Below, piece after piece: positions 4,649 through 64,000 of a stretch of DNA of 64,000 bases. The notes beneath the pieces are model-generated. The model made no database searches, was not told where the DNA came from, and saw only the letters and a program-made list of their open reading frames with translations. The DNA comes from Oscillospiraceae bacterium (lineage in GTDB: Bacteria; Bacillota; Clostridia; Oscillospirales; CAG-272), in contig SVRL01000006.1 of the NCBI GenBank assembly GCA_015064845.1, positions 6,865 to 70,864 of the forward strand. Reading direction: 5' to 3'. Each line of letters opens with the position of its first letter. The stretch's first letter is position 1. The position numbers and the translations under genes are program-made.

Positions 4649-4732
4649 CTTCGTTTTCTGACTATAGTTTACCACATAAGAATAGGGACTTACACGTATG
4701 CATATATGTAAGTTTTCCGAAAGACATGTAAA
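4649..4732 (-). promoter_or_regulatory. Duplicated promoter/operator module, copy 2 (upstream of the RelE-like gene, back-to-back with the STAND promoter)
   Basis: 31-bp near-identical repeat at 4701-4731; palindrome CTTACA-N12-TGTAAG at 4689-4712; TGG-TAAACT extended -10. Confidence 0.85.
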
Positions 4733-4751
4733 TGTTCATGTTGTTTTTCCA

Positions 4752-4780
4752 TTGACAAAAAACTCATTTTTTCTTATAAT
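4752..4780 (+). promoter_or_regulatory. Consensus sigma-A promoter of the STAND gene
   Basis: TTGACA-17 nt-TATAAT. Confidence 0.85.
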
Positions 4781-4817
4781 TATATTAGTAATATTTTACA
4801 GAAAAAGGAGGCATTTT

Positions 4818-7394
4818 ATGTTATACTTGGAGTTTATTGAAATAATGAGTTCGTGCACAAGTATTTTGGGTCGAGAAAAATGTAGCAGATTTGACATAGA
4901 GAAATTGATTTTCGCGCCTCAAGATGACAAGGGTACATACTCGTTTAAATATAAAGGTTCAAAATCAAATGAAGTTCCGGTATATTTACCGGCATCTCAG
5001 GCTATTAGACTTATTAGTGTAAAACAAAAAGATGAAAAACTTCTGCCAATATATTTCCTTCCATCAAACTGGAAAATAGCACTAAGCCATTCCGATAATT
5101 ACCCAAGGCTTTGGCAAAATGTTGAATCTTATATTAATAAAAATACGGAAAATATACGAGAAATCAACTATGAAGGATTAGCAGGGAAATTGAGGTCAAC
5201 CGAAGAAGTGGCACTGTTCATAAATAAATATTTGAAAAATATTCCTCTTGATGATAAAAATTTTTGCATGATAGGAATTTTTATCGGCATACAAATAATT
5301 GCAAATGAAAAAGTAGTGGAAGCTCCTTCTGATAAATTAATCAAAATCTTAACGGAGAAGATATCGTCTTTTTCTGCGATGTCTGGAGCCGTTATAAAAA
5401 AAGAAAATAAAGATCAAAAACTCCTTTCATCTCCTAAACCCATTTCCAAAACGATCTACGGCAGAGATAAAATTATTGATGATGTAGCGCAACAGTTAAA
5501 AGAGAATCACGTTATTTTTCTTTATGGCATAGGCGGTATAGGAAAGACGCAAATAGCGAAGAACTATGTAAAAAAATATAGCTCAAATTATGACACAATC
5601 ATTTACGGAACATATCCAAATACGGATAACAGCAAATCTAATGACGAACCTAACGATGGCTTAAAAGAGTTGCTGCTTTCAGAAGATGTATTTGCTTTCG
5701 AACCAAAAATGAATCGAAGAGTGTTGTCGGACGGAAGTTTGGAAAATGATGATGACTACGCAGGAAGAAAACTTCAAAAGATCAAAGATTTGTCAAATGA
5801 GCGGACTCTTATCATTGTAGATAACTTTGATGTTATGAACGATAAATTACTCTCTGAATTCATAAACGGAAGATATCATTTGTTAATAACCACACGTTGT
5901 TCCTATGAAAATATGTATCCAATGATAAAAGTCAAAGAGATTGAAGATATTGACGATATCAAACAAATATTTTTCAAAAATTATCGATGTGATATTGTAA
6001 CTTGTGATGATCCTCATTTGGAAGAGTTGATTGAATTGGTAAATAGGCACACCTATACGATTGAATTAATTGCAAAACATATGTCAAATAGTGGGCAATC
6101 CACATTGGAAATGATAGATTTACTGAAAAAAGAAGGGATCATATGTTTAAACGAAGAAATTCGAAATGACGATTGCTCTACAGAGGTAGCATTTGAAAAT
6201 TTAAAGAAAATGTTTAAGATTTTCAGGCTTTCAGATGAGGAAAAGCAAATTCTTCAGTATATGTGTCTTATGCCTTTGAGCGGTGTAAAAAAGAGCGATT
6301 TTAAAAGGTGGGCAGGTTTAAAATCTCTATCAAAAGTTAATAATCTTATAGATCGGAGCTGGATTATCCAAAATACCAATGGTATTGCACTTCATCCCAT
6401 TATTCGCGATGTTGTTCGAAAACAATTACCCTTGACAAACGATAATATTGAATTTTTCATCATTAATTTTATAAATGATATGAATGATGTTCATAATACA
6501 TTGAGAAAACATCATTTGATATACAGAGAACGCAAAATTCATTTAGATATAGCAGAGACACTAATCGAAAAAATCACATCAGAAAAATTATTATATGATC
6601 AATTGAGATTTATATATGCTTACTGTGTTTTTGATACGGGCAATAGCAATCGTGCTGTCCAACTCTTTGAAGAATTGCTGCAAACTAGCAACAACTTAGC
6701 ATTCAAATTAAACTGCTATGAAAAAGTAATTCAAAATTATGTTTTGTTGGGAGAAGCTGCTATCGCTGTAGAAATTGCATTAAAAGCTTATGAAGAAGTT
6801 AAACCTTTTGCAGCGAATATAAATTCCCCAGACATAGGAAGACATTATATTTGCTTACTTCATCGTCTTATTGAAGCATATAGACTACTTGGTGATTATG
6901 AAAAATCTTTGTATTATGGAACTTTATGCTTGTCACAAAGTGATAAATTTTTCGAAATATACAAAGATGACTTGACTGCATGGACAAAATATCATATCGG
7001 GCGAACATTGGTATTGAAAGGAGAGCCTTGTGAAGAATTTCTAAAAGAAGCCATGGAAGTATTTCTATCAAATCAAGACGATTTAGCAGTTGCTAACTGT
7101 AATGATATTTTGGCATTGGTCTATAAACAAAAGGGATTATTTGTCGAAGCCTTAACGATTAATGAAGAAGCATATAAAATGCACACCCATTTGTTGGGCA
7201 ATTTTCATATCGATATTGCCAATAATCAAAAATGGCGTGGTGATATTTTCTTGAAAATGAAAAAGTTTGACGATGCTGAAAAATGTTATCAGAATGCAAT
7301 TTTAATATATAAAAATAAGAATTGTAGAATTCATGTGGAAGAAGTCATTGCCATTTTAAATTATATTAAGCATATGAAAAATTTGGAGGAATAG
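4818..7394 (+). CDS. STAND (NB-ARC-like) NTPase with C-terminal TPR array and a ~200-aa unassigned N-terminal domain
   Basis: IYGRD, Walker A GIGGIGKT, Walker B IIVDNFD, sensor LITTR, winged-helix LHPIIR, then TPR-like helices; start moved to ATG 4818 after RBS AAAGGAGG. Confidence 0.88.
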   Translation: MLYLEFIEIMSSCTSILGREKCSRFDIEKLIFAPQDDKGTYSFKYKGSKSNEVPVYLPASQAIRLISVKQKDEKLLPIYFLPSNWKIALSHSDNYPRLWQNVESYINKNTENIREINYEGLAGKLRSTEEVALFINKYLKNIPLDDKNFCMIGIFIGIQIIANEKVVEAPSDKLIKILTEKISSFSAMSGAVIKKENKDQKLLSSPKPISKTIYGRDKIIDDVAQQLKENHVIFLYGIGGIGKTQIAKNYVKKYSSNYDTIIYGTYPNTDNSKSNDEPNDGLKELLLSEDVFAFEPKMNRRVLSDGSLENDDDYAGRKLQKIKDLSNERTLIIVDNFDVMNDKLLSEFINGRYHLLITTRCSYENMYPMIKVKEIEDIDDIKQIFFKNYRCDIVTCDDPHLEELIELVNRHTYTIELIAKHMSNSGQSTLEMIDLLKKEGIICLNEEIRNDDCSTEVAFENLKKMFKIFRLSDEEKQILQYMCLMPLSGVKKSDFKRWAGLKSLSKVNNLIDRSWIIQNTNGIALHPIIRDVVRKQLPLTNDNIEFFIINFINDMNDVHNTLRKHHLIYRERKIHLDIAETLIEKITSEKLLYDQLRFIYAYCVFDTGNSNRAVQLFEELLQTSNNLAFKLNCYEKVIQNYVLLGEAAIAVEIALKAYEEVKPFAANINSPDIGRHYICLLHRLIEAYRLLGDYEKSLYYGTLCLSQSDKFFEIYKDDLTAWTKYHIGRTLVLKGEPCEEFLKEAMEVFLSNQDDLAVANCNDILALVYKQKGLFVEALTINEEAYKMHTHLLGNFHIDIANNQKWRGDIFLKMKKFDDAEKCYQNAILIYKNKNCRIHVEEVIAILNYIKHMKNLEE

Positions 7395-9007: not shown

Positions 9008-10147
9008 TTATTTACTAATAACTTTTTCACTGCTCATAAGTGCGTAACCAATCAATAAGAAAAACAATCCATATATGGTTGTTGAAACTATTGTGATTAT
9101 AAAATGCGTGGCAATAGTTGTACCGCTAAAAACGGCTTTTAGGGCATTAAGCGTATTAATAATGGGAATAAAGTTGGTTGCCGTTGAGATATTGCCCGTC
9201 TCTATATACATAGCTGCACCGCCAATAATTGTAGGTAGCAAAGTGAACAGATTAATTCTCAAAGAGCCTTCTTTAACAGTTTTTGCACTCAAAGACAGCA
9301 TACTAATAACAGAAGCTGTAAAGAAGGCAAATATTCCTGTTACAATAAAAAATAATAAAACTTGATGTGCAGACATTCCAATGCCTTTAAAATCATCTTC
9401 CAATGCAAAAGAAATAAGGTATCCTCCTACCGATACCAAGGTGCTTAAACACACGAATAGGAACACCGTTACCGTCTTGGCAAAATACAAAGCCTTACGA
9501 CTTATTTTTGTTGCAAGTAGGCTCTCAAGGGAACCTCTTTCTTTTTCTCCACAGAATAAATCCAGCGCTATTCCAGATCCACCAGTCGCAATAAACATTA
9601 CAATTAGCATTGGTCCGATTACCGAAATCATAGAATTATGATTGTCATTATCGGTAATTGTTGCGACATCCTCACAAACATAATGATATTCAGAAAGAAT
9701 GTCAATACTTTCACCATGAACTGTGAGCACTTCATATAGCATTGCCGTCTTGGCAGATTCAATAGCGCTGCTGGCAATGGCAGTGGCTTTGGTGGATTTT
9801 ATGGAATTTTGGTCATAAATAATCTGAAAACCATTTTCATCATTTTTATTTACAATCAAAGAAACTTGTCCCGATTTTAACTCTGTAGCAGCATCTTCTG
9901 TCACAATTATATCAACATCGATACCATTCAAGGAAATAATTTCAGCAATCTCTTTGATTTTGCTTTCATCATTTGTTGCCAAAATGATTTGTTTTGAAAG
10001 GCTTTCATCTGCCGATGCGATCTGACGATTGTAGATATTCAGCAACAGCGGAAAAATGAAAAGCGGTAAAATCATCATTACCAAGGAGCGTTTATCTCTA
10101 AAACAATCCAACAGTTCTTTTCTCAGCACAACAAAAAAACTTTTCAC
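9008..10147 (-). CDS. ABC-2 type exporter permease (NatB-like)
   Basis: RKELLDCFRDKRSL start, GEKERGSLESLLAT motif, multiple TM helices. Confidence 0.9.
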   Translation of the reverse strand: MKSFFVVLRKELLDCFRDKRSLVMMILPLFIFPLLLNIYNRQIASADESLSKQIILATNDESKIKEIAEIISLNGIDVDIIVTEDAATELKSGQVSLIVNKNDENGFQIIYDQNSIKSTKATAIASSAIESAKTAMLYEVLTVHGESIDILSEYHYVCEDVATITDNDNHNSMISVIGPMLIVMFIATGGSGIALDLFCGEKERGSLESLLATKISRKALYFAKTVTVFLFVCLSTLVSVGGYLISFALEDDFKGIGMSAHQVLLFFIVTGIFAFFTASVISMLSLSAKTVKEGSLRINLFTLLPTIIGGAAMYIETGNISTATNFIPIINTLNALKAVFSGTTIATHFIITIVSTTIYGLFFLLIGYALMSSEKVISK

Positions 10148-10872
10148 TTTGCTTTCGTCCTTTCTCTAAAGTAGAAAAACAAGCTTGAAACACTTTTGCA
10201 ACCGGTTTTCTCCAAAAGTTCTGCTTTGGATCCTTGTCCTATAACCTTGCCCTGTTCCAAGAAGACAAGATTGTCGCAAAGAGCCATCTCTGTTGGATTA
10301 TGGGTCGACAACAGTATCGTTTTACCTTGTTTTTTACAGTGTAGTATGAAATTTTGAACATCACAGATAGAATTGATATCGAGCCCTGTGGAAGGCTCGT
10401 CCAATAAAAGTATATCGGGCGAGTGGATAATGGATTTAGCAAACGCAATCTTCTGGCGCATACCTCTTGAGAAACCGGAAACTTGACGATCAAGATACTC
10501 ATTCATTCCAAGCAATGCAGAGAGCTCCATCAGTCTTTTTTCTGAAACTGTGCGCTTCATTCCTTGCAAATCCGCAAAATAGAGAATATTTTCTTTCGCT
10601 GTCAAACGGTCATACAGAGTAATATCGCCTCCGAGGAGAATACCGATTTTTTCACGGGCTTTTTGCGGTGATTTAACAACATCAATATTATCCATCATAA
10701 TGGATCCGGAGGTTGGTTTTAACAAAGTACACATCAGCCGCATCGAAGTGCTCTTACCTGCTCCGTTAGAGCCGATTAATCCGGTGATCCTACCAGTGGG
10801 TGCGGAAAAAGAAATATTATTAACAGCGAATTTCTCGCCAAATTTTTTGCTTACATTTTTTACAGTTATCAT
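10144..10872 (-). CDS. ABC exporter ATP-binding subunit (NatA-like)
   Basis: GSNGAGKS, FSRGMRQK signature, LLLDEP; 4-bp overlap with the permease. Confidence 0.95.
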   Translation of the reverse strand: MITVKNVSKKFGEKFAVNNISFSAPTGRITGLIGSNGAGKSTSMRLMCTLLKPTSGSIMMDNIDVVKSPQKAREKIGILLGGDITLYDRLTAKENILYFADLQGMKRTVSEKRLMELSALLGMNEYLDRQVSGFSRGMRQKIAFAKSIIHSPDILLLDEPSTGLDINSICDVQNFILHCKKQGKTILLSTHNPTEMALCDNLVFLEQGKVIGQGSKAELLEKTGCKSVSSLFFYFRERTKAK

Positions 10873-10893: not shown

Positions 10894-10924
10894 AGAGTCG
10901 GTAGCAGATTTTACTACCGACTCT
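10894..10924. promoter_or_regulatory. Hairpin between peptide B and the ABC ATPase RBS (possible attenuator)
   Basis: Perfect 11-bp stem AGAGTCGGTAG/CTACCGACTCT. Confidence 0.6.
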
Positions 10925-10941
10925 TCGATTTTGCATTATGC

Positions 10942-11022
10942 TTATTTGAGAACTGTTCTCAATACACGACAACCATTAATTACAATCCAGCATGCCATGA
11001 ACAAATTACACAAAGTAACCAT
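10942..11022 (-). CDS. Unannotated 26-aa hydrophobic peptide B, MVTLCNLFMACWIVINGCRVLRTVLK
   Basis: Manual translation; strong RBS AAAGGAGG 5 nt before ATG; below the ORF-track cutoff. Confidence 0.6.
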   Translation of the reverse strand: MVTLCNLFMACWIVINGCRVLRTVLK

Positions 11023-11059
11023 AATTGCCTCCTTTCTCACAAAAAATCAATAAATTCTG

Positions 11060-11088
11060 TTTACAAAATTTTCGCTTTGTGATAAAAT
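11060..11088 (+). promoter_or_regulatory. Sigma-A promoter firing antisense into peptide A
   Basis: TTTACA-17 nt-(TG.)TAAAAT. Confidence 0.65.
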
Positions 11089-11090
11089 GA

Positions 11091-11350
11091 AAGGTAAGAT
11101 ATACAGGGAAACGGGCATTTCCCTGTATATCGGCGATTCCAAATCGCTTTCCTTGACGGGAGAAGAATCAAAAGCATGTTCGCCAACAGTTTTATTCTCT
11201 CCCCGTCTCTTGAATCACTGCAATCACAATGGATTCAACTGATATCATCTGCAAAGCTTAATGAGCGTATAGCTTGATTGCAGTGCTACAGCGCTATAAA
11301 CGATACAGAAAGTCAAAACAAATGTAGCCATATATCGAAGCCTCCCTTCA
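11091..11350 (+). ncRNA. Candidate structured antisense RNA
   Basis: Perfect 14-bp stem 11098-11131, 6-bp stem, long stem 11155-11207, perfect 11-bp stem 11216-11285 and a CCTCC-loop hairpin at about 11337-11349; follows the + promoter. Confidence 0.55.
11245..11331 (-). CDS. Unannotated 28-aa hydrophobic peptide A, MATFVLTFCIVYSAVALQSSYTLIKLCR
   Basis: Manual translation; RBS AAGGGAGG; own promoter TCGACA-17-TATTAT at 11411-11383. Confidence 0.6.
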   Translation of the reverse strand: MATFVLTFCIVYSAVALQSSYTLIKLCR

Positions 11351-11480
11351 TGTGGATTACACCTGTGATCTAGTGTGTTTTTATAATAGCACATTTTTCT
11401 ATGCTTGTCGAGAGGATTATTAAACCATTGTTATAAACGCGAGTATGTTTGTTGTTTCTCAAAAATAATATAGTGAAAGC

Positions 11481-11533
11481 TTGTTGTTAACAAGACTGTG
11501 CTTGTTGACAACAATGTTAAATTTGTTTAAAAT
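11481..11533 (+). promoter_or_regulatory. Promoter TTGACA-17-TAAAAT overlapped by two TTGTT-N3-AACAA palindromes
   Basis: Palindromes at 11481-11493 and 11502-11514; -35 at 11505-11510, -10 at 11528-11533. Confidence 0.7.
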
Positions 11534-11550: not shown

Positions 11551-12939
11551 ATGCATTATTCTTTAAATGAGATTATTGCGAGATTATCGCTTCATAAATA
11601 TTTTGAAAAAATTCAAAAGAAAGAATCCAAAAATTACAAAGAAATTCTTCTTAAAAGATTATTTGATATAGATTATTACGGTGCGCCTAGTGGACGGGAT
11701 GCATTCTTTCGCGGCAATTACAAGCATCCAGGAAATGAGGACTTCCCCTCTTTACAAAAAGAAACAGATTTAACCCAAAAAATTACTGAACTTTTTTTTG
11801 ATAATAATTATATACAAACATTATTCGAAAAAATTAAACAAAATATATGGGAGCCTCTACAACACGATACAGAGAAAATATTGTCGGAACATCGCAAAGA
11901 TATTTTCGGAGATTTTCGATATGACACTGTAACTAAAACTAATCGAATGCTGGATAACGATTTAATAAAAACAATTGAAATCTTGTTGGAATCAGAATCA
12001 AAAGACTCATTCATTTATGTCATTTTATTATTCATTTTAATTGCCATATTCCATGAAGATATTACTACTCAACCTGTTTCTATCGTATTAAAGGAAGAAA
12101 CAATAGAAAGCATTCTAAAAATTGGATTTAGCAAAAATAATTATCCTACATCCATCTCAAATACATTAAATGGATCTATAACAAACGAATATAATAAATT
12201 ATTCGTTCATCCTCAATACAAAAACTTTAAAATCTATCTTTACAACGATACAGGGAACTACACTTCCGATTTTTGTTTCGGAGAAATCCATTTTATGGAT
12301 AATGGTAATGTGACACTTAGTTATCAAAATGAAAATTCAACAGGAACAACTAAGTATTCCGGCAAAGCATATCTTTTTACCGTTAATGAATTGGTTCATA
12401 TAACTCTTGAAGACGAGGCTACACATAGAGGGGCTTTCATTTGTTTTCATTATACTGAATTTCAAAAGGGACCTAAAAAATGTTTGCTTAGAAAAGGATT
12501 ATTCATTTCAACCGGTGCTGCCTCCGAGAATTTTAGGCCGTTTGTGAAAAATATTATTTTATTACACAAAGAGCCAACACAACAAGAGTTTGTACGTGGT
12601 TTGTTAAAATGTTGCGATATGCGAAACGGAAACGAATTTATTATTATACAAAAAAACTCAGTGAACCATTTCATAGATCGACTTTATGAATTTGATTTTA
12701 TGCTTTCTCTCAGTAATTCAAAATTGCTTTTTAAACAATTTTTTGCTAAACATGAGCACAATAATTACTGTTTTGTCAAAGAAAATGAGTTCTTAGTTTT
12801 TTTAATGGAAAATTTCAAACCATTTTTAAATGAATGGGAACGCATAGAAATTATTTTGCTCCTTAAGTCATTTTCAGAATTACCTAATGCAATCTATCCC
12901 TATGCAACACCGGATCCCACGTTCCAAATTTTTCGTTAA
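11551..12939 (+). CDS. Hypothetical protein (helical N-terminus, beta-rich middle domain)
   Basis: Long AT-rich ORF; start after RBS GAGGAGG; no family recognised. Confidence 0.75.
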   Translation: MHYSLNEIIARLSLHKYFEKIQKKESKNYKEILLKRLFDIDYYGAPSGRDAFFRGNYKHPGNEDFPSLQKETDLTQKITELFFDNNYIQTLFEKIKQNIWEPLQHDTEKILSEHRKDIFGDFRYDTVTKTNRMLDNDLIKTIEILLESESKDSFIYVILLFILIAIFHEDITTQPVSIVLKEETIESILKIGFSKNNYPTSISNTLNGSITNEYNKLFVHPQYKNFKIYLYNDTGNYTSDFCFGEIHFMDNGNVTLSYQNENSTGTTKYSGKAYLFTVNELVHITLEDEATHRGAFICFHYTEFQKGPKKCLLRKGLFISTGAASENFRPFVKNIILLHKEPTQQEFVRGLLKCCDMRNGNEFIIIQKNSVNHFIDRLYEFDFMLSLSNSKLLFKQFFAKHEHNNYCFVKENEFLVFLMENFKPFLNEWERIEIILLLKSFSELPNAIYPYATPDPTFQIFR

Positions 12940-21826: not shown

Positions 21827-21949
21827 CATCAAAATCCCGCGTGAAAAGCACATCCGAAAAACGCGGAACAAAACCGTTTGAAGCCTCAAACGATTTCCAA
21901 AAACGGCTGCACTTTTCATACCCAAAAATGTTTCATCATGCCTCACAAT

Positions 21950-22075
21950 GGGACGAGTATTCCGACTTGAGTTTCTGTCCGACAGGACAAAAACAGTTAC
22001 GGTAATGGCGGTTGCGACGGATTTTCACCGAACTTCCCTCTGATCCGCAGAAAGCGGAGCCCCAAAGCGATTCTA
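21950..22075 (-). promoter_or_regulatory. Cobalamin riboswitch
   Basis: AGGGAAGTTCGGTGAAAATCCGTCGC...ACCGTAA...AAGTCGGAATAC core; promoter TTGACA-16-TACAAT at 22118-22091; upstream of B12-type ECF genes. Confidence 0.85.
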
Positions 22076-22114
22076 TATGATTGTACTTTTATTGTATCAC
22101 GGAAATTGTATTTG

Positions 22115-63751: not shown

Positions 63752-63827
63752 GGGAGCATAGCTCAGCTGGGAGAGCATCTGCCTTACAAGCAGAGGGTCA
63801 TAGGTTCGAGCCCTATTGTTCCCACCA
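63752..63827 (+). tRNA. tRNA-Val(TAC)
   Basis: Cloverleaf, anticodon loop CTTACAA, encoded CCA. Confidence 0.97.
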
Positions 63828-63831
63828 TTTT

Positions 63832-63908
63832 GGCCCGGTAGTTCAGTTGGTTAGAACGCTAGCCTGTCACGCTAGAGGTCGTGGGTTCGAGTCCCATCCG
63901 GGTCGCCA
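63832..63908 (+). tRNA. tRNA-Asp(GTC)
   Basis: Cloverleaf, anticodon loop CTGTCAC, encoded CCA. Confidence 0.97.
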
Positions 63909-63927
63909 TCTTGTTTATACAAGATTT

Positions 63928-64000
63928 GCCTCTGTAGCTCAGTTGGTAGAGCAGGGGACTGAAAATCCCCGTGTCGTTGGTTCGATTCCGATCGGAGGCA
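63928..64000 (+). tRNA. tRNA-Phe(GAA), ends at the window edge
   Basis: Cloverleaf, anticodon loop CTGAAAA. Confidence 0.95.

What the first reader, a model, noticed from the sequence alone, without database searches (positions are those of the whole stretch)
11060..11350. Structured ~250-nt antisense RNA overlapping peptide A: type I toxin-antitoxin-like architecture
Seen: a + strand promoter (TTTACA-17-TAAAAT) converges on the peptide A promoter. The intervening sequence folds into a three-way junction with a perfect 14-bp stem, a long second hairpin and an 11-bp stem overlapping the 3' half of peptide A. A CCTCC loop is complementary to peptide A's SD. Known: Firmicute type I TA loci (txpA/ratA, bsrG/SR4, fst) pair a short hydrophobic peptide with a convergent antisense RNA. 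Inference: a new type I TA, or an antisense switch that also gates read-through into the exporter.
Basis: partly seen in the sequence, partly recalled or inferred. Interest (0 to 1): 0.65.

Follow-up and report, generated by a model that had tools for sequence, protein, structure and literature searches.

The report
Face-to-face promoters around a micro-peptide gene
The stem-loops and the backward-pointing promoter are real and recur in related DNA, but they look less like a toxin-antitoxin pair than like a two-promoter antisense switch shared by a tiny peptide gene and a neighbouring gene for an unknown 462-residue protein.

Summary
These are the + strand promoter TTTACA-17-TGaTAAAAT (11060-11088), a perfect 14/15-bp hairpin (11098-11131), a long second hairpin (11155-11207) and an 11-bp pairing reaching into peptide A. 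The region folds far better than shuffles (z -4.7 and -5.4).

The key new result is comparative. Peptide A and the divergent 462-aa gene (11551-12939) form a rare module found in six sequence-distinct loci. Each locus has a different SD-led micro-peptide. Each also has a strong promoter just downstream of the peptide ORF on the opposite strand, pointing back through it towards the 462-aa gene. Predicted TSS-to-TSS overlap is 167-281 nt.

A proximal promoter of equal quality for the 462-aa gene exists only in the window. The hairpins fold equally on both strands, carry U-rich tails and wobble pairs on the peptide strand, and are absent from two loci that keep the promoter.

Best reading: a prgQ/prgX-like convergent-transcription switch. 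The stem-loops would be the peptide transcript's terminator, gating read-through into peptide B and the ABC-2 exporter. Type I toxin-antitoxin is a minority rival. No RNA data could be obtained.

The parts
11060..11088 (+). Convergent sigma-A-type promoter TTTACA-17-TGaTAAAAT. Predicted start about 11094-11097, 2-4 nt before the big hairpin.
   Evidence: 10 of 12 matches plus TG. Best antisense-strand match in the peptide-to-next-gene spacer, shuffle P 0.005. Identical or equivalent promoters in L024/L025, L035, L037/L043 and L040.
11098..11131 (.). Perfect hairpin, 15 bp on the - strand and 14 bp on the + strand. On the - strand it is followed by CUUACCUUUCAUUUUAUC. Read as the terminator of the peptide A transcript; its complement would be the 5' stem-loop of the + RNA.
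   Evidence: (flagged terminator-like on the - strand). L025 keeps it through a T-A to C-G double change plus a G.U closing pair that exists only on the peptide strand. L037/L043 have an unrelated 13-bp hairpin at the same place, with a U.G pair on the peptide strand.
11132..11148 (.). Small hairpin or palindrome GCGATT-NNN-AATCGC, conserved in sequence.
   Evidence: Single occurrence in the window. Present at the homologous place in L024, L025, L037, L038 and L043. On the regulator strand it is followed by UUUC and was flagged terminator-like in L043.
11155..11207 (.). Long bulged hairpin (H2).
   Evidence: A helix is kept with different sequence in L024/L025, L037 and L043.
11216..11285 (.). 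11-bp pairing: 11216-11226 with 11275-11285, the latter arm inside peptide A codons 16-19. On the - strand it competes with a local hairpin.
   Evidence: Not conserved: relatives have only a local hairpin after the stop codon.
11245..11331 (-). Peptide A ORF, MATFVLTFCIVYSAVALQSSYTLIKLCR (28 aa), with SD GGGAGG at 11346..11341.
   Evidence: An SD-led micro-ORF sits at the same place in every related locus, with a different sequence each time.
11383..11411 (-). Peptide A promoter TCGACA-17-TGcTATTAT. Predicted start about 11376; conserved 5' UTR with a small stem-loop.
   Evidence: Conserved in L024, L025 and L040, with equivalents in L035, L037, L043 and L044.
11481..11514 (+). 14-bp inverted repeat just upstream of the 462-aa gene. 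It could be a leader hairpin/attenuator or an operator. Its 3' arm holds the -35 of a window-specific proximal promoter (11505-11533).
   Evidence: A strong inverted repeat of different sequence lies at the same place in L024, L037, L040, L041, L043 and L044.
11551..12939 (+). Gene for the 462-aa protein of unknown function that the convergent promoter points at.
   Evidence: no Pfam. Rare family. Model pLDDT 83: helical N domain, 8-strand beta-barrel, alpha/beta C domain.
10942..11022 (-). Peptide B ORF, MVTLCNLFMACWIVINGCRVLRTVLK. It is followed by a 13-bp hairpin (10925..10895) and the ABC ATPase SD.
   Evidence: Homologous peptides precede the ABC-2 operon in L022, L027 and L029. It is truncated in L024 and L025.
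9008..10872 (-). Downstream cargo: ABC ATPase (10872..10144) and ABC-2 permease (10147..9008).

Best explanation
The segment is the overlap zone of two face-to-face transcription units.

On the - strand, a promoter at 11411..11383 makes a short mRNA for the 28-aa peptide A. This mRNA runs into a series of stem-loops ending in a 15-bp hairpin with a U-rich tail (11131..11098). I read that hairpin as its terminator. Whatever reads through continues into peptide B and the ABC-2 exporter genes.

Immediately beyond that terminator, a conserved + strand promoter (11060-11088) fires back. Its RNA starts about 11095. It is perfectly complementary to the whole peptide A transcript and to that transcript's promoter, over about 280 nt. 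It runs on towards the 462-aa gene at 11551 and probably serves as that gene's long leader. It may also be cut or terminated to give a shorter antisense RNA.

The two promoters would therefore oppose each other through polymerase collision and RNA-RNA pairing. This would set how much transcription passes the terminator into the exporter genes and how much 462-aa protein is made. The logic is that of prgQ/prgX on plasmid pCF10.

Shown: the sequence elements, their folding, and their conservation across diverged loci. Inferred: that both RNAs are made, where they end, and the regulatory outcome.
For: (1) Promoter and hairpins are present and fold beyond chance.

(2) Homologues of the 462-aa protein were placed in context. 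Every locus with upstream DNA has a divergent SD-led micro-ORF.

(3) In each of these loci the best promoter match on the antisense strand lies between the peptide stop codon and the next gene:
- window, L024, L025: TTTACA-17-TGaTAAAAT
- L035: TTTACA-17-TGtTACAAT
- L037, L043: TTGAAA-17-TGcTATGAT
- L040: TTGACA-17-TATAAT (12 of 12)
Per-locus shuffle P ranges from 0.037 down to 0 of 2000. The tool's own scans agree. L035 and L040 lack the GC-rich hairpins, so the promoter is not a by-product of terminator U-tracts.

(4) A proximal regulator-strand promoter scoring at least 10 of 12 is seen only in the window, with a weaker one in L037. None is seen in L024, L025, L035, L040 or L043.

(5) Predicted TSS-to-TSS overlaps are 167-281 nt. 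pCF10 has 223 nt (PMC3181467).

(6) Terminator reading: the scan flags the 15-bp hairpin as terminator-like on the peptide strand in the window and in L024. The wobble pairs in L025 and in L037/L043 exist only on the peptide strand. A helix is kept despite complete sequence turnover.

(7) No good - strand promoter lies between the terminator and peptide B; the best match is 8 of 12. Exporter expression therefore plausibly depends on read-through.
Against:
- Folding energies do not tell the strands apart. Window -60.0 versus -56.4, L024 -52.0 versus -55.9, L037 -70.7 versus -69.0, L043 -48.5 versus -50.7 kcal/mol.
- Promoter-like matches are common in AT-rich spacers: 15 found against 10.2 expected in 2.5 kb.
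- The window has its own near-consensus proximal promoter for the 462-aa gene (11505-11533). Weak 9-of-12 candidates exist in other loci. The long-leader idea is therefore not forced.
- A 10-of-12 match at 10962..10935 could drive the ABC genes independently.
- The 462-aa protein shows no DNA-binding or peptide-binding family signature.
- Only about six independent loci exist, all from metagenomes.
Confidence: 0.5

Rival explanations
1. No functional antisense RNA. The stem-loops are simply terminator or stabiliser hairpins at the 3' end of the peptide A mRNA. The + strand promoter-like sequences are AT-rich look-alikes, or weak and irrelevant.
For: Promoter-like matches are frequent here. The window's -10 TAAAAT is the complement of the terminator's U-rich tail. 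Hairpin features favour the peptide strand. The window has a proximal promoter for the 462-aa gene.
Against: Strong matches of at least 10 of 12 plus TG, or 12 of 12, recur at the same relative place and orientation in four sequence-unrelated versions of the spacer. These include two loci with no terminator hairpin. In every locus the sense strand of the same spacers scores lower once the extended -10 (TG) is counted.
Confidence: 0.2
2. Type I toxin-antitoxin. Peptide A would be a membrane toxin, and the + strand RNA would be its antisense antitoxin, blocking translation or triggering RNase III decay.
For: Peptide A is 28 aa with a 16-17-residue hydrophobic core and K25/R28 near the C-terminus. 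There is a conserved convergent promoter with a long perfect overlap, as in the Clostridioides difficile modules (PMC6563280). The locus lies on a mobile element.
Against: - It is never a stand-alone pair. It is always linked to the ~460-aa gene on one side and to co-oriented cargo on the other: an exporter, or Sec-signal wall hydrolases.
- The L035 peptide has only 9 uncharged residues in a row. The L037 and L043 peptides have no charged residue at all.
- There is no Pfam hit for any peptide and no Rfam hit; the best is FinP at 17 bits against a threshold of 45.
- No short antisense RNA with a conserved terminator can be defined.
Confidence: 0.12
3. A short (~55-60 nt) + strand sRNA. It would run from the start at about 11095 through the big hairpin and the small hairpin to UUUCCUU (ends about 11150). 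Like Anti-Q, it would act only on the terminator region of the nascent peptide A transcript and would not cover the ORF.
For: The small hairpin is the only part conserved in sequence across all hairpin-bearing loci, and it is always followed by UUUC on the regulator strand. The scan flags it as terminator-like in L043.
Against: The stem is weak (6-8 bp, -4 to -7 kcal/mol) and the U-tract is short. The scan does not flag it in the window, L024 or L037. It is absent in L035 and L040.
Confidence: 0.1
4. Reversed roles. The 462-aa protein would be a harmful effector, and the abundant peptide A transcript would be the antisense RNA that silences its long leader.
For: The N-terminal domain, with a 22-residue very hydrophobic helix, is shared with the N-terminus of a STAND NTPase, the position where such proteins carry effector domains. 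The best structural match of the beta-barrel is the Cap15 cyclic-dinucleotide receptor of a membrane-disrupting effector (E 0.015, not significant).
Against: Structural matches are weak, with none at E <= 0.001. There is no PADLOC hit. The consistent link to Sec-secreted wall hydrolases and an exporter looks more like regulated cargo.
Confidence: 0.08

Closest known systems
prgQ/prgX control region of Enterococcus faecalis plasmid pCF10 (Qs and Anti-Q RNAs, IRS1 terminator; PMC3181467)
   Same: Two face-to-face promoters give transcripts whose 5' parts are perfectly complementary: 223 nt in pCF10, a predicted 167-281 nt here. A small hydrophobic peptide ORF lies inside the overlap. A terminator decides read-through into downstream cargo. 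The opposing promoter also leads to the neighbouring protein gene.
   Different: The partner protein is not an RRNPP/PrgX-type HTH-TPR repressor. It has an unknown helical domain plus a beta-barrel. The peptides lack the basic N-terminal region of PrgQ. Here the terminator lies inside the overlap, just before the opposing promoter, rather than beyond it. Two related loci have no terminator hairpin. Nothing is shown experimentally.
Convergent type I toxin-antitoxin modules of Firmicutes (txpA/RatA, bsrG/SR4, fst/RNAII; C. difficile CD2517.1/RCd8; PMC6563280)
   Same: A peptide under 60 aa with a hydrophobic N-terminal part. A convergent cis-antisense promoter with long perfect complementarity. 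A location on a mobile element.
   Different: It is not a self-contained pair. The charged C-terminus and the membrane-spanning length are not conserved among relatives. There is no family match for peptide or RNA. The antisense transcript has no defined short end and points at a protein gene.
Rgg/SHP-type peptide signalling cassettes of streptococci (from general knowledge, not tested against a paper here)
   Same: A short hydrophobic peptide gene is divergent from a larger protein gene. The peptide promoter leads into variable downstream target genes. Peptide sequence varies between alleles.
   Different: The protein has no HTH or TPR domain. No antisense promoter is part of the Rgg/SHP definition. 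The peptides lack the basic N-terminus.

Membership tests
Type I toxin-antitoxin | Toxin under 60 aa with a predicted transmembrane segment | tested here: inconclusive
   Window peptide A: best 17-aa Kyte-Doolittle window 2.15, met. Among relatives, the L035 peptide reaches only 0.43 with 9 uncharged residues in a row, not met.
Type I toxin-antitoxin | Cluster of charged residues at the toxin C-terminus (PMC6563280) | tested here: not met
   Window peptide A has only K25 and R28. The L037 and L043 peptides have no charged residue, and L024 has one K.
Type I toxin-antitoxin | Cis-encoded antisense RNA with its own promoter overlapping the toxin mRNA | tested here: inconclusive
   The promoter is conserved in six loci.
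Type I toxin-antitoxin | Self-contained two-gene module | tested here: not met
   The pair is always flanked by the ~460-aa gene and by co-oriented cargo.
Type I toxin-antitoxin | Match to a described toxin (Pfam) or antitoxin (Rfam) family | tested here: not met
   No Pfam hit for nine peptides at E <= 10. No Rfam family near its gathering score.
Type I toxin-antitoxin | Toxicity on overexpression, relieved by the RNA | not testable with these tools
   Needs a bench experiment.
prgQ/prgX-type convergent switch | Face-to-face promoters whose transcripts overlap at their 5' ends | tested here: met
   Met at the sequence level. Both promoters score at least 10 of 12 in every locus, with predicted overlaps of 167-281 nt.
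prgQ/prgX-type convergent switch | Small peptide ORF within the overlap | tested here: met
prgQ/prgX-type convergent switch | Factor-independent terminator gating read-through into downstream genes | tested here: inconclusive
   A terminator-like hairpin is present in the window, L024/L025 and L037/L043. It is absent in L035 and L040. Its position relative to the opposing promoter differs from IRS1.
prgQ/prgX-type convergent switch | Partner gene encodes an RRNPP-family peptide-binding repressor | tested here: not met
   No HTH or TPR by Pfam or NCBIfam. No PDB sequence relative. The fold is a helical domain plus a calycin-like beta-barrel.
Ribosome-dependent attenuator (leader peptide) | Alternative pairing linking the leader ORF to the terminator arm | tested here: not met
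   The terminator is a perfect self-contained hairpin; the only other copy of the arm in the genome is its own partner arm. The ORF-overlapping 11-bp pairing is not conserved.

The most novel reading that the evidence does not exclude
This could be a previously unrecognised peptide-linked switch family on mobile elements of gut or rumen Clostridia. Its parts would be a hypervariable micro-peptide, a non-RRNPP partner protein (helical output domain shared with a STAND NTPase, plus a ligand-binding beta-barrel) and prgQ/prgX-style counter-transcription. Together they would control Sec-secreted wall hydrolases or an exporter. The peptide, the protein's N-terminal ~100 residues and the upstream inverted repeat are exchanged together between alleles. 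That pattern is what specificity-determining partners would show, as in pherotypes.
Probability: 0.2. Interest if true: 0.8.

Novelty: new variant of a known kind. Interest (0 to 1): 0.55.

Why it matters
If the two RNAs are made as predicted, this is a second, independently evolved example of the pCF10-type counter-transcription switch around a micro-peptide. It is built with an unrelated and wholly uncharacterised protein family, and it sits on mobile elements of uncultured gut anaerobes. It would give a function to a ~460-aa family with no annotation. It would also flag a class of unannotated 21-31-aa genes, and explain how secreted wall hydrolases or exporters on these elements are kept switchable. 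For annotation practice, it shows that a 'type I TA-like' look (small hydrophobic ORF plus convergent promoter plus hairpins) can belong to a larger regulatory cassette.

Tried and rejected
- DNA search with 10930-11420 in the window's own genome and in 300 genomes of the family found only chance AT-rich matches.
- Two metagenome-contig scans found nothing: a permease profile and the exact hairpin.
- Viral contigs, plasmid and phage collections hold no relative of the 462-aa protein. None was found in 400 genomes of the order either.
- Rfam at gathering and at E <= 10 gave nothing meaningful.
- Assigning the strand by folding energy was inconclusive.
- RNAalifold on a MAFFT alignment recovered the three helices, but the L037-type hairpin was out of register and the covariation term was unfavourable. 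I therefore relied on per-sequence folds.
- The three-way junction and the ORF-overlapping 11-bp stem are rejected as conserved features.
- A ribosome-attenuator reading is rejected because no alternative pairing to the terminator arm exists.
- A holin-like role for the peptide is rejected because the hydrolase cargo has Sec signal peptides.
- The first AlphaFold model (8 sequences, pLDDT 60) was too poor to use. The second (28 sequences, pLDDT 83) gave only weak fold matches.

Full report
**What is in the sequence.** On the - strand, a promoter TCGACA-17-TGcTATTAT (11411..11383) precedes a conserved 5' UTR, an SD (GGGAGG, 11346..11341) and a 28-codon ORF. This is peptide A (11331..11245, MATFVLTFCIVYSAVALQSSYTLIKLCR). 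Downstream on that strand lie five elements:
- an 11-nt segment (11226..11216) that can pair with codons 16-19 of the ORF (11285..11275);
- a long bulged hairpin (11207..11155);
- a small hairpin GCGATT-NNN-AATCGC (11148..11132);
- a perfect 15-bp hairpin (11131..11098);
- a U-rich tail, CUUACCUUUCAUUUUAUC.

The scan flags the 15-bp hairpin as terminator-like on the - strand. About 75 nt further on come a second micro-ORF (peptide B, 11022..10942), another hairpin (10925..10895), and then an ABC ATPase, an ABC-2 permease and a 185-aa protein.

On the + strand, TTTACA-17-TGaTAAAAT occupies 11060-11088. A transcript from it would begin 2-4 nt before the big hairpin and run antisense through everything above. 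Further along the + strand are a 14-bp inverted repeat (11481-11514), a promoter-like TTGACA-17-TAAAAT (11505-11533) and a 462-codon gene (11551-12939) with no Pfam domain.

**Check of the observation.** Folding is far better than shuffled controls on both strands (z -4.70 and -5.41, no shuffle as good). Three details do not hold up as features:
- The 'three-way junction' is one of several near-equal folds and depends on a weak closing helix.
- The 11-bp ORF-overlapping pairing is not kept in relatives.
- The 'CCTCC complementary to the SD' is automatic for any antisense of an SD.

No Rfam family matches at gathering score. At E <= 10 the best match on the + strand is FinP at 17 bits against a threshold of 45.

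**Finding relatives.** The DNA has no homologue in 300 genomes of the same family. Two metagenome scans also failed. Protein anchors worked.

Homologues of the permease gave L024 and L025, the same element at 91-93% identity. They also gave L022/L023, L027 and L029 at about 60-65%. In this second group a single micro-peptide related to peptide B directly precedes the ATPase, with a GC-rich hairpin between them:
- L022: MGFWIVWGILFVCVTAASAKTLRRK
- L029: MGFWVAWGLIFIFVVSASAKTLRRK
- L027: MFTFAVGCKAFLAAWTVVNACGLLRRTIYK

There is no peptide A, no structured spacer and no 462-aa gene. So peptide B belongs with the exporter, and peptide A does not.

Homologues of the 462-aa protein form a very small family: 8 clusters in 5.8 billion proteins, and 30 hits in 1.8 billion representatives. 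They gave L035/L036, L037/L038, L040, L041, L043 and L044. Every one of these with upstream DNA carries a divergent micro-ORF with a GAAAGGAG-type SD, but each has a different sequence:

| Locus | Micro-peptide |
|---|---|
| L024/L025 | MAGLTGAFIFFLAASAVAGWGKTFLS |
| L035 | MIFSFTIIIRGNKSKTWLPYINPRDS |
| L037 | MIPTFTVVCWTMAAFMFGTLF |
| L040 | MCFLGSSICSAVVSIGGSYTLSKRSKFRDSS |
| L043 | MSFLIGSLFYAAGNLIWAGYCLFG |

The genes downstream of the peptide differ between loci. The window and L024/L025 have the ABC-2 exporter. The others have Sec-signal proteins with PG-binding/C39-like or FG-GAP/NlpC-P60 domains. The conserved unit is therefore the ~460-aa gene plus the divergent micro-peptide, placed in front of variable cargo.

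**The decisive comparative result.** In each locus I took the spacer between the peptide stop codon and the next gene and scored sigma-70-type matches on both strands. The best match is always on the strand antisense to the peptide:

| Locus | Antisense-strand promoter | Shuffle P (2000 shuffles) |
|---|---|---|
| window | TTTACA-17-TGaTAAAAT | 0.005 |
| L024 | TTTACA-17-TGaTAAAAT | 0.02 |
| L025 | TTTACA-17-TGaTAAAAT | 0.017 |
| L035 | TTTACA-17-TGtTACAAT | 0.037 |
| L037 | TTGAAA-17-TGcTATGAT | 0.012 |
| L043 | TTGAAA-17-TGcTATGAT | 0.0105 |
| L040 | TTGACA-17-TATAAT (12 of 12) | 0 of 2000 |

The built-in scans list the same sites. The L037/L043 and L040 spacers share no recognisable sequence with the window's. 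L035 and L040 have no GC-rich hairpins. So the promoter cannot be explained as the complement of a terminator's U-tract or as inherited sequence. This is the strongest evidence available here that a + strand transcript is real.

Predicted start-to-start overlaps are 281 nt (window), 278 (L024), 275 (L037), 235 (L043), 214 (L035) and 167 (L040), derived.

**Where the antisense transcript goes.** On the regulator strand, between the peptide promoter and the ~460-aa start codon, a promoter match of at least 10 of 12 is present only in the window, with a weaker one in L037. L024, L025, L035, L040 and L043 have none at that level; some 9-of-12 candidates exist. The convergent promoter is thus the best conserved promoter upstream of the ~460-aa gene. 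The simplest reading is that it drives that gene through a long leader, about 450 nt in the window, that is antisense to the peptide gene.

Each locus also has a strong inverted repeat of locus-specific sequence 20-50 nt before the gene's SD. This could be a leader hairpin or attenuator: it is flagged terminator-like in the window and in L040. It could equally be an operator. I cannot tell which.

**What the stem-loops are.** They fold about equally well on either strand, so energy does not assign them. Three things point to the peptide strand:
- U-rich tails follow the big hairpin there in the window, L024 and L025, and a second hairpin plus U6 follows it in L037/L043.
- In L025 a T-A to C-G double change keeps the stem, and its closing G.U pair exists only on the peptide strand.
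- In L037/L043 an unrelated 13-bp hairpin sits at the same place and uses a U.G pair that would be A.C on the other strand.

H2 is likewise kept as a helix with different sequence in three versions. RNAalifold on a plain MAFFT alignment recovers H2, the small hairpin and the big hairpin. 15 of 37 pairs show a both-sides change, although the L037-type hairpin is out of register there.

The small hairpin is conserved in sequence rather than by covariation. It could be a protein site, or, with its UUUC tail on the other strand, a weak terminator for a short antisense RNA.

I read the array as the terminator region of the peptide transcript. No - strand promoter better than 8 of 12 lies between it and peptide B. 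Read-through would therefore feed the exporter genes, although a 10-of-12 match at 10962..10935 could also do so.

**Mechanism proposed.** Two face-to-face promoters about 280 nt apart flank a micro-ORF. A terminator ends one transcript where the other begins. Established work on pCF10 shows what such an arrangement does: transcriptional interference, an antisense RNA that promotes termination before the cargo genes, and reciprocal RNase III-dependent silencing of the opposing mRNA (PMC3181467). I propose the same logic here at about 50% confidence. The existence of the + transcript I put at about 75%. The peptide-strand terminator role of the hairpins I put at about 65%.

**Type I toxin-antitoxin reading.** Peptide A alone fits loosely: 28 aa, a hydrophobic core, and K/R near the end. 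The family does not fit. One member is not membrane-like, and three of the five relatives have no or only one positive residue at the C-terminus (criteria from PMC6563280). The pair is never self-contained, and no known toxin or antitoxin family matches. I keep this reading at about 12%. It is not exclusive of the switch model, because a leader RNA could also silence a harmful peptide.

**The partner protein.** With 28 sequences AlphaFold gives pLDDT 83: a helical N domain (1-190) with a very hydrophobic 22-residue helix, an eight-strand beta-barrel (225-338) and an alpha/beta C domain. Fold matches are weak, with none at E <= 0.001. The best are the Cap15 cyclic-dinucleotide receptor barrel and lipocalin-like barrels.

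Residues about 100-175 are 37% identical to the N-terminus of a STAND-TPR NTPase, P0073. P0073 shares several identical short stretches with the STAND protein encoded at 4698-7394 of this window, so it looks like a relative.

Between the window and L024 the protein's first ~100 residues cannot be aligned, while the rest is 70% identical. Over the same comparison the ATPase is 91% and the DUF6061 protein 100% identical. The peptide, H2/H3 and the upstream inverted repeat are exchanged along with those residues. That pattern would suit specificity partners, but this is inference only.

**Limits.** Only about six independent loci are known, all metagenomic. The promoter scoring is a consensus match, not a measurement.

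Noticed in passing
window 10942-11022 (-); L022 3130-3207; L027 2622-2714; L029 2635-2711: A second micro-peptide family (peptide B) sits directly before the ABC-2 ATPase, with a GC-rich hairpin between them. It has a hydrophobic N-terminal part and a basic tail such as KTLRRK, LRRTIYK or LRTVLK. It is conserved from about 60 to 95% permease identity. In L024 and L025 it is truncated by two different deletions.
   Followed up: partly
window 11551-11850 (+) compared with L024 2613..2300 (-): The first ~100 residues of the 462-aa protein cannot be aligned between two otherwise 70-100% identical elements. They are exchanged together with peptide A, two hairpins and the upstream inverted repeat, a cassette-like allelic swap.
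   Followed up: partly
window 11851-12075 (+), residues ~100-175 of the 462-aa protein; P0073 residues 111-181: This helical segment, including the hydrophobic helix FIYVILLFILIAIFHEDI, is shared with the N-terminus of a STAND-TPR NTPase. That NTPase shares identical short stretches with the window's own STAND protein at 4698-7394. The domain appears to be a movable output module.
   Followed up: partly
L035 1658-2953, L037 1327-2946, L040 966-1988, L043 2-499: In other loci the gene downstream of the micro-peptide encodes a Sec-signal protein with PG-binding/peptidase C39-like or FG-GAP/NlpC-P60 domains, that is, likely secreted wall hydrolases, instead of an ABC exporter.
   Followed up: partly
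L022 2838-2870 and 3063-3090; L027 2325-2352 and 2558-2585: Near-perfect palindromes of about 22 bp (for example CTACATAATGCAAATTATGTAG) bracket the peptide B promoter region next to a tyrosine recombinase gene. They look like operators.
   Followed up: no
window 21935-22079 (-): A cobalamin riboswitch match scores exactly at the Rfam gathering score (31.5 bits). Three tRNA genes lie at 63752-64000.
   Followed up: no
L025 3378-5065: In this relative the ABC ATPase (184 aa called) and permease (354 aa) are shortened and the peptide B region is deleted. The exporter operon seems to be decaying while the peptide A-type cassette stays intact.
   Followed up: no
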